Below, piece by piece: positions 57,948-64,000 of a DNA stretch of 64,000 nucleotides. Location of the stretch: assembly GCF_009914755.1 (NCBI RefSeq), contig NC_060930.1; one strand, given 5' to 3'. Position 1 is the first letter of the stretch. The number at the start of each line of letters is the position of its first letter. This DNA is from the human T2T-CHM13v2.0 reference genome, Homo sapiens. Both the position numbers and the translations under genes were made by a program. The notes below the pieces were generated by a model. The model was not told the origin of the DNA and did not search any database. It saw only the letters and a program-made list of their open reading frames with translations.

Positions 57948-58021
57948 TAGTCATGTACTGTATAAAAACATTCTGGTCAACAATGGACCACATATAAAAC
58001 AGTGGTCCCATAAGATTATAA
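57948..58021 (+). mobile_element. Tigger3a/MER7-like, 5' piece (continues at 63870)
   Basis: agtcatg..ggtcaacaatggaccacatat..gtggtcccataagattataa matches recalled Tigger3a start. Confidence 0.85.
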
Positions 58022-58543
58022 AAGAGGAGGGGCATGGACCAGAAATCTGAGAGAGGTCAAAGACGCCCAGGCCAGGTGCCTCTCAGGTACTCATGTACTG
58101 ATATGAAGTAGGAGGGGCGCAGTGCTAGAAGCCCCTTCCTCAGTGCTGCCAACCAGACACCCAGCCCATGGCAAACCCTGGCCTAGGGCTGCTCCTGGCC
58201 CTGGGCCTGCCTCTGCTGCAGGCCTGCTTAGGCCCAGCCTTGAGACAAACCTCCACAGCAGGGGCCCCTTCTGTAAATGAGAGCAGCACTATCATGCCCA
58301 CCAGCTCCAGCTCCAAAGGGACCCTGTCTCAGGGGGCATCACTGCTATCATGTGGACTAATCCATCCTGGCCACCCTACTCCTGGCTGTGGGACTGGAAC
58401 TACTGGTGCAGAAGCTTCAGGAGAAGCATAGATGGAGGCGGAAACCTACCTACCCAGCAGCCAGGAACAGGTGGGTGCCCATGCGCCACAGACCCTCAAC
58501 TTCAAATTGCCTCCGGAGGAGTAGCAGCTCATCTGAACGCTGG
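58022..58543 (+). pseudogene. CRB3: CRB3 processed pseudogene, 5' UTR-like region and degenerate CDS (ATG 58168, stop about 58534-58536)
   Basis: MANPGLGLLLALGLP; after frameshifts SILATLLLAVGLELLVQKLQEK and TYLPSSQEQVGAHAPQTLNFKLPPEE*QLI*, against CRB3 TYRPSSEEQVGARVPPTPNLKLPPEERLI; no introns; may correspond to the annotated CRB3P1 (not verifiable here). Confidence 0.93.
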
Positions 58544-58794
58544 TGTTAGAGGCCTTTGAACCAGAGTGACTCCATCTTGAATAGGGGCTGGGTAAAATTG
58601 ATAAAGGAATTAAGAAGAAATTACTTAGGCAGATAATGAGGATATGGAAGTCCTCGGTAAGGTTTTCCTTTTAATGAAAAGCAACCCCAAATTATTTTTC
58701 TTTCTAATGAAGAGCAGTCTGTAAAACCGAGCTGCAGACATTGATTGGCAGTTGTGCCAATCATGTTCAAGATGGTGGCTCCATCTTCTTCTTC

Positions 58795-59097
58795 TTTTTT
58801 TTTTTTTTTTTTTTTTTGATATGGAGTCTTGCTCTGTCGCCCAGGCTGGAGTGCAGTGGCGCAATCTCTGCTCACTGCAAGCTCCGCCTCCCGGGTTCAC
58901 GCCATTCTCCTACCTCAGCCTCCCGAGTAGCTGGGACTACAGGCGCCCACCACCACGCCCGGCTAATTTTTTTGTATTTTTAGTAGAGACGGGGTTTCAC
59001 CGCATTAGCCAGGATGGTCTCGATCTCCTGACCTCGTGATACACCCACCTCGGCCTCCCAAAGTGCTAGGATTACAGGCTGAGCCACCGCGCCCAGC
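58795..59097 (-). mobile_element. AluY
   Basis: caagctccgcctcccgggttcacgccattctcc; ccaggatggtctcgatctcctgacctcgtgat. Confidence 0.93.
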
Positions 59098-59099
59098 CA

Positions 59100-59391
59100 A
59101 GATGGAGTCTCACTCTGTCGCCCAGGCTGGAGTGCAATAGCTGGATCTTGGCACACTGCAACCTCTATCTCCTGGGTTCAAGCTATTCTCCTGCCTCAGC
59201 CTCTCCTCCCCAACCTGTAGGTGAGATTACAGGTGTGTGCCACAAAGCCCGGCTAATTTTTTTGTATTTTTAGTAGAGACAGGGTTTCACCATGTTGGTC
59301 AGGCTGGTCTCGAACTCCTGACCTCAAGTGATCTACCCACCTCAGCCTCCCAAAGTGCTAGGATTACAGGCGTGAGCCACCGCGCCTGGCC
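59100..59391 (-). mobile_element. Alu (AluS-like) without its own tail, abutting the AluY
   Basis: Reverse-complement Alu; ccatcttc flanks the Alu pair. Confidence 0.9.
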
Positions 59392-59900
59392 CATCTTCCC
59401 TTCTTCTGTACAGTAAGGAGCAGACAAGATGGCGCTGGTTAACTGGAAAGCCCATTTGCACAATAAGATTAGGGTGGGGCAACCAGTCTTACCACAAGCA
59501 CTATGAAAACATCATACCTGATCGAACCAATTTGTGAGCCCTATGTAAATCAAACACTGCCTCCTCAAACCTGACTATAAAATCTGGCCCATCCACTGCT
59601 GGCAGGTCTTTCTTCTCAGAAGTCCCCTCTCTCTCAAGAGGCAGAGCTGTTTTACTTTCTTTTCTTCTGCCTATTAAACCTTCGCTCTTAAACTCCTCAT
59701 GTGTGTCTGTGTCCTAAATTTTCCTGGCGCCAGACAACAAATCCCAGGTATATACCCCAGACAATGTAGCCACTTCAAAATGAAGCTGAGATCTACTGGG
59801 CTGCATTCCCACGAGGTTAGGTATTCTAAGTGACAGGATGAGATAGGAGGTCTGCAAAAGATACAGGTCACAAAGGCTTTGCTAATAAAACAGGTTGCAA

Positions 59901-61190: not shown

Positions 61191-61461
61191 GTTTGCTTGT
61201 TTTGAGCTGTTGGAGGCATTAGCCAAGACGGAAGACACAAATGCAGAGGAACTGCAAGGTTGTAAGGATCCTAGGGTATTGGGGGGCTTCCTGGAACTCC
61301 CTTCTAGAATCCAGTTAAAGAGGCTGCCCTTGGAGGGTGAGAGGTGGGTAGGTTGTGTTCCCCTCCAGAGAGAGGGCCTTAGAGAAATTCACCAGGAAAA
61401 ACCAGCTTCTGGCTCTTGTGGCTTTATTGAAGGACAGGAGTCTCCTCCCGACCCTTGATCC

Positions 61462-63019
61462 TTAACCGTCAAAGCACTTAAGATCAGCCACTCTGGGCTG
61501 GCTCCTGGCCTGGGGCTCCTGCTGGTTGCTGGTGGGTGATGGAATTCAGGCCTCCCAATTCTTCCAGTGACTGGAGGTGAGTGTGCTCTGCTAGCAGGAC
61601 TTTGCGAGGCTGGGCTCTGGGATTCTCTGGAGAACTAGGGTCTGGGGAAGGATCAAGAGGCTGGACTATCTGGACAATATCAAAGTTGGACTTTGTGGGG
61701 GCTGGAATTTGGGGGCTTTCTGGAGGGCTGGGCTGGGTGGGCACTGTGGAGAGCCTGGAACTGGGGCTTTCCTGGGCTCTAGAATGTTTGGCTGCCTTGT
61801 AGGGAGGGGAAAGATAAAGGATTAGGGACTCTGTGAGAGGAGAGTGTTCGGGGTCCCCTCCGCTACTTGGGTCTGCAGGAGCTGTTGAGGACTGAAATGG
61901 AGAGATGACTTCTTGGTTAGCCTCTAGGACAGCTAGGACTTGAGATTCCTTGAGAAGCTTGTAGCATCCACAGATGAGGCATTTTGCAGAGACGGCAGGT
62001 CTGCAGGCAGGGACAGGGGCTGAAGCTCTGGCAGTTTCTCATTGTCTGGTTGCTATCTTGCTCTTCCTGGTATGTTGGGCTGGGTAGGGTGGAGAGACGG
62101 GCAAGTTGCTGGCCTTTAGATGGCAAAGGGGTTGGCAAGTTGGATGGACCATTAGGGTAAAACTTGGGGAAGAGGCAGGGTTTCCACCAGGATGAATCAG
62201 CTGTCTAGGTCCCCTCTGTGACAGCAGTTTAAATTCTGGCCTGGTCTCAGGCTGCCTGCACTCTTGGCTCCAACACTCAGACTGTCCAGAATCTCACTCA
62301 ACAAATCCAGTTATTCTCTAGACCTCAAGATGCTGCTGCCTATAGCTTCTTTTGCCATAGGCTCCCCTCATCCTTAGGGCTCAGAGGAGGTGTTCTAGAT
62401 GAGGATGGGCAGCCTCAGGTATTTGCCTGAGAGCCCCAGCCCTAGTCAGGCTGCTCTGGAGTTTGGGTACCCTTCTCCGCATCAGTTGTGGCCTCCTGCT
62501 TTCAATATTGGTGCTCCCCTTTAGCTTTACCCCTCCCTTGGGGGCTTAGAAGTTTTCTCTTCCAGCTGGAGTCTCTTGCTGGGGTGGAGGGGCTGGTTCT
62601 GCAAAGGGTGGGAAAGACAGGACCTTGGGAGCTTCAGAATCAGGGGGCTGAGGCTTGTTGGAAGAGGGTGAGTGTGAAGTGGGTGCCAAATATTAGGGTA
62701 AGTGAGGAGAGAGGCAAGATGTCTGGATGGGGACTGGGGTGGGTGGAGGATTCAGTGATAATACCAAGCATGTGTATGGGGGAAGGGGTGTTCTCACCTG
62801 TTCAAAGTGCTGAGTGATAGGCAGGTGCTGCTGCAGGTGATCTGAGTGGCTGGTGAGGGCTAGACCCTCAAGGAGCACCTCCTCTGGAGGCCAGAATCCC
62901 CATCCAAGGAAGAGAATGCCTGAGCTGGGAGCCCCTCCCACACCCCCCAGATATTAGCCTTTGGCTGGTCTTACCTTATAGATTAGCAGGCTCTGCATCC
63001 CCCTCAAGCTACACTTGGC
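61462..63019 (-). pseudogene. DENND1C: Degenerate copy of the last five DENND1C exons with introns retained
   Basis: Exons 62975-63019 (AKCSLRGMQSLLIYK), 62798-62904 (DGDSGLQR..SDHLQQHLPITQHF), 62531-62598 (NQPLHPSKRLQLEE), 62188-62394 ([23 protein letters not shown]), 61462-62079 ([28 protein letters not shown]); GT-AG introns, one acceptor decayed to TG; internal stops. Confidence 0.9.
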
Positions 63020-63502
63020 CTATAGAAGCACTACGGGAGAATTACACCTGAGGCTGATTGGACCCTGGGCATTTCAGAGCTCAATCCTCTTATCTCATAA
63101 GACAGCTTCATCTTGCTATCTGTCCAGCTCTGTGTCTTAAATATGTTCACAACCCCCCATGCACCATCTAAGAAATCAATACAAACTTTCACTCCTTTGG
63201 CTAATACAAAGGGAGTATTCCAGGAGGAAATAATCACCAAATAAAATGAAAAGTGGCAAAACAACGTTGTACAAGTGTTCATGGCTCAAAGCCATAAAGT
63301 ATAAAATTACGTGAACAATTTTGAGCTGCAAAAGTTGGCTCCAGGAAACTTGTCGGCTTGGGAGAAAAAAAAAAAAAAACACATAAGGGCAAAAGCTGGG
63401 ATTATATGGTCCAAGGACAAAGGATGCTTGCCAGTGAATCTTGGTTGTCAATTTTAAAGAAGCGGGCTATGATTTTGACAAAAAGGAGCATGATGAATGG
63501 AA

Positions 63503-63539
63503 AATAAAAGTGGGAAGACTTGTTAATAGAAAAAAAAAA
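63503..63539 (+). terminator. Polyadenylation signal AATAAA and remnant poly(A) of the retrocopy
   Basis: AATAAA at 63503-63508; A-run starts 63530, followed by gattat of the TSD. Confidence 0.75.
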
Positions 63540-63546
63540 GATTATG

Positions 63547-63870
63547 GGCCAGGTGTGGTGGCTCACACCTGTAATCCCAGCACTTTGGGAGGCCAAGGAG
63601 GCTGGATCACTTGAGGTCAGAAGTTTTTGAGACCAACCTGGCCAACATGGTGAAACCCCATCTCTACTAAAAATGCAAAAATCAGCTGGATGTGGTGGCA
63701 CGCCTGTAATTACACCTGTAATTACACCTATAATCCCAGCTACTCGGGAAGCTGAGGCACAAGAATCACTTTAACCTGGGAGGCAGAGGTTGCAATGAGA
63801 CAAGATCATGCCACTGCACTCCAGCCTGGGCAACAATGTAAAACTGTGTCTCAAGAAAAAAAGAAAAAAA
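63547..63870 (+). mobile_element. Alu inserted at the retrocopy tail/TSD
   Basis: aaaaagattat on both sides; internal 12-bp tandem cctgtaattaca at about 63703-63726. Confidence 0.93.
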
Positions 63871-64000
63871 AGATTATAATGAAGCTGAAAAAATTTTATT
63901 GCCTAGTGATATCATAGCTGTCATAATGTTGCAAGGCAACACATTACTCGCATGTTTGTAGGGATACTGGTGTGAACAAACCTACTGCACTGCCAGTCAT
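63870..64000 (+). mobile_element. Tigger3a/MER7-like, continuation
   Basis: aagattataatgaagctgaaaaa..gcctagtgat..aaacctactgcactgccagtc continues the recalled consensus from 58021. Confidence 0.85.

What the first reader, a model, noticed from the sequence alone, without database searches (positions are those of the whole stretch)
58012..63879. Retroposed fossil of a CRB3 read-through RNA antisense to DENND1C
Seen: one insertion bounded by TSD aagattataa (58012-58021 / 63870-63879) inside Tigger3a. It contains an intronless CRB3 CDS, the CRB3 3' UTR, then about 2.3 kb more carrying five DENND1C exons on the opposite strand with introns intact, then AATAAA (63503) and an A-tail 21 nt later. Length is about 3.4 kb after removing the later LTR nest. 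Established from memory: CRB3 and DENND1C are convergent neighbours on human chr19. Inference: asymmetric splicing (sense introns removed, antisense introns kept) shows the template was a spliced, polyadenylated CRB3 isoform overlapping DENND1C, i.e. a natural antisense transcript present in the ancestral primate germline or early embryo.
Basis: partly seen in the sequence, partly recalled or inferred. Interest (0 to 1): 0.9.

Follow-up and report, generated by a model that had tools for sequence, protein, structure and literature searches.

The report
Retrocopy of a read-through CRB3 transcript
This is an old, dead, reverse-transcribed copy of a CRB3 messenger RNA that ran past its usual end into the neighbouring DENND1C gene, so it preserves a long CRB3 transcript form that current annotation does not show.

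Summary
Window 58022-63539 is one L1-type retrocopy, about 3.4 kb once later insertions are removed.

- **Splicing:** it aligns to chr19 as four CRB3 exons with all three introns removed.
- **Read-through:** it then runs colinear with the genome for about 2.35 kb past the usual CRB3 3' end.
- **DENND1C:** this stretch crosses exactly five DENND1C exons on the opposite strand, with four whole introns kept.
- **3' end:** it stops 21 nt after an AATAAA with an untemplated A-tail.
- **Insertion site:** the 10-bp duplication is real. 5 of 11 other copies of the host repeat show the uninterrupted site.

I add three things. The distal site is the first canonical poly(A) hexamer downstream of the CRB3 stop codon. 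RefSeq's "DENND1C pseudogene" here is an antisense passenger, not a copy of DENND1C mRNA. Published primers for the lncRNA ENST00000615487.1 (AC010503.4) map inside the distal end of the read-through, so plus-strand RNA is still made there.

This is a new member of a known kind. Interest is moderate.

The parts
58012..58021 (.). 5' target-site duplication AAGATTATAA
   Evidence: The empty site is seen in 5 of 11 other copies of the host repeat, with an exact 10-bp overlap of the flanks.
58022..58075 (+). CRB3 exon 1 (5' UTR); start of the retrocopy
   Evidence: Aligns to chr19 6453788-6453837. The parent has GT directly after it.
58076..58249 (+). CRB3 exon 2, with the start codon at 58168
   Evidence: Aligns to chr19 6454095-6454270. 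The reading frame is broken by a frameshift and stop codons.
58250..58258 (+). Nine nt (CCTCCACAG) identical to the last 9 nt of parental intron 2; implies an alternative 3' splice site 9 nt upstream
   Evidence: The chr3 copy lacks these 9 nt.
58259..58326 (+). CRB3 exon 3
   Evidence: Aligns to chr19 6455032-6455105.
58327..58543 (+). CRB3 exon 4, first part, through the stop codon (58534-58536); this is the ERLI-type isoform a form
   Evidence: The parental exon 4 translates to ...EERLI*.
58544..60675 (.). Later nested insertions. The outer LTR-like element is in three pieces (58544-58598, 59777-59899, 60206-60671). It holds an inner element (58599-59776) that carries two Alus (58786-59394), and a further Alu (59900-60205). 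A duplicated CTGG lies at 60672-60675.
   Evidence: In 8 of 9 other family copies the three outer pieces are contiguous. The parent is uninterrupted at this point.
60676..61184 (+). CRB3 3' UTR up to the usual (proximal) poly(A) site
   Evidence: Colinear with chr19 6456167-6456701. The chr3 CRB3 retrocopy ends at 6456701.
61185..63529 (+). Read-through segment, colinear with the genome downstream of CRB3 and antisense to DENND1C
   Evidence: One alignment to 6458477, then 6459073-6459631. The parent-only Alus explain the gap.
61173..62079 (-). DENND1C last exon (3' UTR plus coding part 61465-62079); this is RefSeq LOC100133007 (61266-62060)
   Evidence: tblastn with the 799-aa DENN-domain orthologue P0007; hub annotation.
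62188..62394 (-). DENND1C second-to-last exon
   Evidence: AG/GT borders are kept in both parent and copy.
62531..62598 (-). DENND1C third-to-last exon
62798..62904 (-). DENND1C fourth-to-last exon
62975..63019 (-). DENND1C fifth-to-last exon. The next exon upstream (chr19 about 6459852-6459781) lies beyond the end of the copy.
63503..63508 (+). AATAAA poly(A) signal of the template RNA
   Evidence: It is conserved in the parent, within a cluster of three AATAAA at 6459596-6459612.
63530..63539 (+). Untemplated A-tail (10 A)
   Evidence: The parent reads TTTAACTG at this point.
63540..63879 (.). 3' TSD split by a later Alu: GATTAT (63540-63545), the Alu with its A-rich tail (63546-63869), then AAGATTATAA (63870-63879)

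Best explanation
An L1-mediated processed retrocopy was made from a single CRB3 transcript. That RNA started in CRB3 exon 1 and had all three CRB3 introns spliced out. It kept the isoform-a (ERLI) form of exon 4 and used an acceptor 9 nt upstream for exon 3. It was not cleaved at the weak proximal poly(A) site. Transcription continued about 2.9 kb on present-day chr19, or about 2.35 kb without two later Alus. This stretch is antisense to the last five exons and four introns of the convergent gene DENND1C. The RNA was then cleaved and polyadenylated about 21 nt after the first canonical AATAAA downstream, inside a DENND1C intron. L1 machinery reverse-transcribed it into a repeat in what is now an LGSN intron on chr6, creating a 10-bp duplication. 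Afterwards the copy decayed, took in a nest of LTR-like elements with Alus, and took in an Alu at its tail. The DENND1C introns are kept because they lie on the wrong strand to be recognised as introns in a CRB3-sense RNA.

Shown: the anatomy, the colinearity, the intron loss, the untemplated tail and the empty site. Inferred: the L1 machinery, the germline or early-embryo setting, and the age.
For: Intron loss: four chr19 blocks correspond to CRB3 exons, and the parent has GT-AG borders at each junction.

Gene identity:
- Parental exon 4 ends ERLI*.
- Its internal alternative splice gives 23 residues ending CLPI*.
- Both match what Fan et al. 2007 report for CRB3 (PMC2064851, passages).

Colinearity: one alignment covers 60668-62942 and passes through the proximal poly(A) site. 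A second covers 62966-63527.

Five DENND1C exons: these come from tblastn with P0007, a 799-aa protein with uDENN, DENN and dDENN Pfam domains. All five parental exons have AG/GT borders on the minus strand.

Tail and signal:
- AATAAA lies 21 nt before 10 A.
- The parent has the same AATAAA, but TTTAACTG where the tail begins.
- Between the CRB3 stop codon and 6459596 the parental plus strand has 0 AATAAA or ATTAAA; a cluster of 3 AATAAA follows.

TSD: 10 of 10 nt are identical. 5 of 11 other copies of the host repeat show the uninterrupted site with an exact 10-bp overlap. The inferred nick site, TCTT/AT on the bottom strand, is T-rich like the L1 endonuclease preference, which I recall rather than tested.

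No similarity to chr19 lies outside the TSDs except Alus.

Divergence: K2P is 0.201 over 3286 aligned sites, and 0.172 without CpG columns.
Against: - The A-tail is only 10 nt.
- The nick site is an imperfect match to the L1 consensus.
- Nine nt of intron 2 are present, and the parent now has AC, not AG, in front of them. The alternative acceptor therefore needs an ancestral AG or a non-canonical site.
- Identity is only 73-87% per block, so fine junction details carry a few nt of uncertainty.
- Only 52-54 nt of exon 1 are present. The true start site of the template is not established.
- In 5 of 11 host-repeat copies the right flank was not found at all.
Confidence: 0.93

Rival explanations
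1. The retrocopy is as described, but its template was a one-off product of failed termination. It was transcriptional noise or stress-type read-through, not a regular CRB3 isoform or a working antisense regulator of DENND1C.
For: - Only one retrocopy of this form was found. The other CRB3 retrocopy, on chr3, ends at the proximal site.
- The current transcript model at the distal end is a 688-nt single exon, not joined to CRB3 (PMC13397989, passages).
- A long-read liver transcript listed there is 700 nt long (PMC11603882, one table row).
- No paper links CRB3 and DENND1C mechanistically. The search found 8 papers, and I saw them only as a listing.
Against: - The distal site is the first canonical hexamer cluster after the CRB3 stop codon, and it is conserved between copy and parent.
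- The proximal site has only a variant hexamer, read by eye.
- Plus-strand RNA is detected there today, with an epithelial pattern.
Confidence: 0.5
2. The copy is a chimera. L1 reverse transcriptase began on a separate polyadenylated RNA antisense to DENND1C, then switched template to a normal CRB3 mRNA.
For: Template switching during L1 reverse transcription is a known way to make chimeric retrocopies (recalled). A separate plus-strand transcript is annotated at the distal end today.
Against: The supposed junction would have to fall exactly at genomic contiguity. The alignment crosses the CRB3 proximal site with no break, no A-tract and no missing or extra bases beyond ordinary small indels.
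Confidence: 0.03
3. The copy arose by DNA-level (segmental) duplication of the CRB3-DENND1C region, or it is a DENND1C processed pseudogene as the RefSeq label implies.
For: RefSeq annotates 61266-62060 (minus strand) as a DENND1C pseudogene (hub table). The DENND1C introns are present.
Against: - Three CRB3 introns are missing, about 257, 750 and 850 bp in the parent.
- The copy has an untemplated A-tail and a TSD.
- No similarity extends beyond the TSDs.
- On the DENND1C strand no intron is removed, and there is no tail at the DENND1C 3' end. The sequence there continues straight into the CRB3 3' UTR.
Confidence: 0.01

Closest known systems
Ordinary L1-mediated processed pseudogene (retrocopy)
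   Same: Parental introns removed, poly(A) tail, flanking target-site duplication, dead reading frame, insertion far from the parent gene.
   Different: The template ended 2.35 kb past the usual 3' end. The copy therefore also holds part of a second gene, on the opposite strand and with its introns.
Partially processed (intron-retaining) pseudogenes, of which the GENCODE pseudogene resource reports eight (PMC3491395, passage)
   Same: A retrocopy that still contains intron sequence, which makes it hard for annotation pipelines to classify.
   Different: All introns of the source gene are removed here. The retained introns belong to the neighbouring gene on the other strand, so they were never introns in this RNA.
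Processed pseudogenes as 'genomic fossils' of transcript variants (Shemesh et al. 2006; I saw only the title in the reference list of PMC5470649; the paper is not held; its content is recalled)
   Same: A retrocopy is used as a record of an isoform. Here it records a distal poly(A) site, an alternative exon 3 acceptor and, in the chr3 copy, the isoform-b splice.
   Different: This is one specific case that spans a convergent gene pair. I could not check whether that study listed it.
Tail-to-tail (convergent) natural antisense transcript pairs, and long 3' UTR isoforms made by distal alternative polyadenylation
   Same: A weak proximal and a strong distal poly(A) signal. The longer form overlaps exons of the gene on the other strand.
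   Different: The evidence for joined CRB3-to-distal-site RNA is a DNA fossil, not RNA data. Current annotation shows only a 688-nt lncRNA at the distal end.

Membership tests
L1-mediated processed pseudogene | Introns of the source gene are precisely absent | tested here: met
   Three CRB3 introns are absent at GT-AG borders. Nine nt at one junction fit an alternative acceptor.
L1-mediated processed pseudogene | Untemplated 3' poly(A) tail following a poly(A) signal | tested here: met
   AATAAA at 63503, then 10 A from 63530. The parent has TTTAACTG at that point.
L1-mediated processed pseudogene | Target-site duplication flanking the insert, with a demonstrable empty site | tested here: met
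   10 of 10 nt identical. 5 of 11 other copies of the host repeat are uninterrupted, with an exact 10-bp overlap.
L1-mediated processed pseudogene | T-rich first-strand nick site (consensus TTTT/AA, recalled) | tested here: inconclusive
   The inferred site is TCTT/AT, read. It is similar to the consensus but not identical.
L1-mediated processed pseudogene | No similarity to the parent locus beyond the duplications | tested here: met
   Only Alu-to-Alu hits lie outside 58026-63527 when window 57000-64000 is compared with chr19 6451001-6461000.
Partially processed (intron-retaining) pseudogene | Retains at least one intron of its own parent transcript | tested here: not met
   All constitutive CRB3 introns are removed. 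The optional splice inside exon 4 is simply the isoform-a form.
DENND1C processed pseudogene (RefSeq label LOC100133007) | Derived from DENND1C mRNA, so DENND1C introns removed and a tail at the DENND1C 3' end | tested here: not met
   Four DENND1C introns are kept. Sequence beyond the DENND1C 3' end continues into the CRB3 3' UTR with no T-run on the plus strand.
Convergent natural antisense transcript | An RNA overlapping exons of a gene on the opposite strand | tested here: met
   The inferred template overlaps five DENND1C exons.
Convergent natural antisense transcript | The CRB3-joined long form is expressed in living cells | not testable with these tools
   Only indirect evidence exists. 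Primers for a plus-strand lncRNA map to chr19 6459323-6459551. No RNA read data are available here.

The most novel reading that the evidence does not exclude
The annotated lncRNA ENST00000615487.1 (AC010503.4 / CTD-2396E7.11, called DENND1C-AS1 in one paper) may not be an independent gene. It may be the 3' end of a CRB3 distal-polyadenylation isoform made since roughly the anthropoid ancestor. That isoform would give a sense-antisense overlap of about 2.9 kb with the last five DENND1C exons in epithelia and germ cells. The chr6 retrocopy would then be the only physical record that joins spliced CRB3 exons to this 3' end.
Probability: 0.35. Interest if true: 0.5.

Novelty: new member of a known kind. 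Interest (0 to 1): 0.35.

Why it matters
- **Annotation.** The RefSeq "DENND1C pseudogene" in this LGSN intron is part of a CRB3 retrocopy. It was never a copy of DENND1C mRNA.
- **Transcript record.** The copy is a clean example of a retrocopy recording transcript features that are hard to recover otherwise. It records a distal poly(A) site, a 9-nt alternative acceptor and antisense overlap of a convergent neighbour.
- **Testable idea.** A cancer-associated lncRNA studied as a stand-alone gene may be the tail of a long CRB3 3' UTR isoform. Its published primers fall 82-310 nt before the fossil's poly(A) site, and it is reported as epithelial-specific. If the idea is right, correlations reported for that lncRNA would partly reflect CRB3 transcription and choice of termination site.

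Tried and rejected
- **Splice-site heuristics for the DENND1C exons:** these worked for the last two exons. They left many possible acceptors for the third-to-last exon. I replaced them with tblastn using orthologues found by a library search.
- **Pfam:** no family matched the CRB3 exon 4 translation or P0010. CRB3 identity therefore rests on the ERLI and CLPI ends described in print.
- **Rfam on 57500-64000:** 0 matches.
- **Literature:**
  - CRB3 with DENND1C gave 8 papers. I saw them only as a listing, and the titles suggest gene lists.
  - CRB3P1 gave 0 papers.
  - Retrocopy with readthrough, antisense and intron gave 4 papers, none on this locus by title.
  - In the search for the two lncRNA aliases plus CRB3, the only paper holding two of the three terms has 0 occurrences of CRB3.
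- **Shemesh et al. 2006:** not held.
- **Repeat names:** no repeat library is available, so I could not test names such as Tigger3a, the LTR families or the Alu subfamilies.
- **Dating by orthology:** not possible, because no other primate genome is held.
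Full report
**1. What is in the sequence**

Reading 57700-64000 shows AAGATTATAA at 58012-58021 and again at 63870-63879. AATAAA lies at 63503-63508. Ten A follow at 63530-63539, then GATTAT, then an Alu at 63546-63869 whose A-rich tail runs into the second AAGATTATAA.

So a later Alu split the original 3' duplication (A-tail, then GATTATAA). The Alu re-duplicated part of it as its own target-site duplication.

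**2. The parent locus**

The window's own genome could be searched.

- Window 60676-63530 gave 4 places: itself, chr19 6456174-6458477 (80% identity), chr19 6459073-6459631 (73%) and a short chr3 match.
- Window 58022-58543 gave 6 places: itself, four separate chr19 blocks and chr3.

I fetched chr19 6451001-6461000 (L011) and aligned it with blastn. The four blocks end at GT and AG in the parent, so three CRB3 introns have been removed precisely.

| Window | chr19 | Part |
|---|---|---|
| 58026-58077 | 6453788-839 | CRB3 exon 1 |
| 58072-58249 | 6454091-4270 | CRB3 exon 2 |
| 58250-58326 | 6455023-5105 | end of intron 2 (9 nt) and exon 3 |
| 58337-58543 | 6455964-6166 | CRB3 exon 4, first part |

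The copy then carries a 2.1-kb block of later insertions. It resumes at the same parental base. It stays colinear as one alignment from 60668 to 62942 (chr19 6456159-6458477) and again from 62966 to 63527 (6459073-6459631).

The 595 bp missing from the copy are two Alus present only in the parent, with matching flanks. Outside 58026-63527, nothing in window 57000-64000 matches the 10-kb chr19 stretch except Alus.

**3. Gene identities**

- *CRB3.* Parental exon 4 translates to ...EERLI*. The internal exon-4 splice seen in the chr3 copy gives 23 residues ending CLPI*. Fan et al. 2007 describe exactly these two ends. They place the alternative splice within the fourth exon and count 23 divergent residues (PMC2064851, abstract and passages).
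- *DENND1C.* A search of a protein-representative library with the large minus-strand ORF gave 15 proteins at E up to 0.001. One of them, P0007 (799 aa), has uDENN, DENN and dDENN Pfam domains.

tblastn with P0007 and the near-identical fragment P0010 places DENND1C exons on the chr19 minus strand:

- 6457605-6456994, plus the 3' UTR
- 6457928-7721
- 6458132-8065
- 6458440-8333
- 6459126-9082
- about 6459852-9781, and further upstream

The copy ends at 6459631, so it holds exactly five exons. It also holds four complete introns and 508 nt of the next intron. All five parental exons have AG and GT borders on the minus strand.

In window coordinates the exons are 61465-62079 (with 3' UTR down to about 61173), 62188-62394, 62531-62598, 62798-62904 and 62975-63019. 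RefSeq's LOC100133007 (61266-62060, from the hub table) is the last exon only.

**4. The ends of the copy**

- *3' end.* The parent reads AAAATAAAAGGGGGAAGAGTTGTTAATGG|TTTAACTG. The copy has the same sequence followed by A10. The tail is therefore untemplated.
- *Insertion site.* The left flank belongs to a repeat with at least 728 first-look candidates, of which 40 were scored. I examined 11 other copies. In 5 the left and right flanks are contiguous and share exactly the 10 bp. In 5 no right flank was detected, and 1 gave a partial hit.
- *Nick site.* The inferred bottom-strand nick is TCTT/AT. It is T-rich, like the L1 preference, which I recall rather than tested.

**5. Why the RNA ended where it did**

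On the parental plus strand there is no AATAAA or ATTAAA between the CRB3 stop codon (6456160) and 6459596. A cluster of three AATAAA follows at 6459596-6459612.

The chr3 retrocopy ends at 6456701, which marks the usual CRB3 3' end. Only a variant hexamer (TATAAA, read by eye) lies 16 nt before it. A TTTATT just downstream is the AATAAA of DENND1C on the other strand.

The picture is a weak proximal site and a strong distal site, that is, distal alternative polyadenylation. The DENND1C introns survive because they are on the wrong strand to be spliced in a CRB3-sense RNA.

**6. Age and decay**

- K2P between copy and parent is 0.201 over 3286 aligned sites, and 0.172 without CpG columns.
- The CRB3 frame has a frameshift and stop codons.
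- The outer LTR-like element is 80-82% identical to the 39 other scored copies. In 8 of 9 copies examined its three pieces are contiguous. It was therefore itself interrupted by a second element carrying two Alus, and by another Alu.
- With a recalled neutral rate near 2e-9 per site per year, about 0.1 substitutions per lineage suggests some 40-50 million years. This is a rough inference and was not tested by orthology.

**7. A present-day counterpart**

A literature search led to PMC13397989 (abstract and passages). The paper covers ENST00000615487.1 (ENSG00000275234, AC010503.4 / CTD-2396E7.11). It describes a 688-nt single-exon lncRNA on the forward strand of chr19, antisense to DENND1C, with predominantly epithelial expression.

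Its published primers map to L011 8323-8342 (plus strand, 0 mismatches) and 8532-8551 (minus strand, 1 mismatch). That is chr19 6459323-6459551, and the product is 229 bp, as published. The amplicon lies 82-310 nt before the fossil's cleavage site, inside the read-through segment.

PMC11603882 lists a 700-nt long-read liver transcript for the same gene (one table row). Neither paper mentions CRB3: each has 0 occurrences. In a search for the two aliases plus CRB3, the only paper holding two of the three terms lacks CRB3.

[quoted passage not shown] That fits a heritable retroposition event.

**8. Verdict**

The mechanism, a retrocopy of a distal-poly(A) CRB3 RNA, is secure.

It remains open whether that RNA was a regular isoform or a single accident. 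The fossil itself cannot decide this. The signal layout and the modern transcript favour a regular isoform. The short current transcript models count against it.

Retrocopies that preserve unusual transcript forms, and partially processed pseudogenes, are known (PMC3491395, passage; Shemesh 2006, recalled). So this is a new member of a known kind. It comes with a useful annotation correction and one testable link to a studied lncRNA.

Noticed in passing
L012:4230-4881 (T2T chr3:1388230-1388881, minus strand): A second CRB3 processed pseudogene, 77-90% identical to the parent per block. It uses the canonical exon 3 acceptor. It has the internal exon-4 splice (chr19 6456096 to 6456438) that gives the CLPI isoform-b end. 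It stops at the usual CRB3 3' end (6456701). No A-tail is visible, and GAATATATA-like repeats flank it.
   Followed up: partly
58250-58258: The nine nt CCTCCACAG at the exon 2/3 junction are identical to the end of parental intron 2. They are in frame and add 3 codons. The human parent now has AC, not AG, in front of them, so the acceptor may have been lost since.
   Followed up: partly
61185-61190: The copy has AATAAA just after the proximal CRB3 cleavage point, where the parent has AACAAAAG. The ancestral state is unknown. If it was AATAAA, the two convergent genes once had back-to-back signals (AATAAAG..TTTATT).
   Followed up: no
61173-63019 (minus strand): The five DENND1C-derived exons keep most AG/GT borders and lie in the same orientation as the host gene LGSN. 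In principle they could be picked up as exons. The hub table lists no LGSN exon here.
   Followed up: no
63364-63380: A run of 15 A inside the copy is a 17-nt insertion relative to the parent (GATAAAA...GGCAG). It is an internal expansion, not a tail, because colinearity continues for 150 nt after it.
   Followed up: yes
L011:7478-8072 (T2T chr19:6458478-6459072): Two Alus entered a DENND1C intron in the parent after the retrocopy was made. If the 688-nt lncRNA model ends at the same poly(A) site, its 5' end would fall inside the second Alu.
   Followed up: partly
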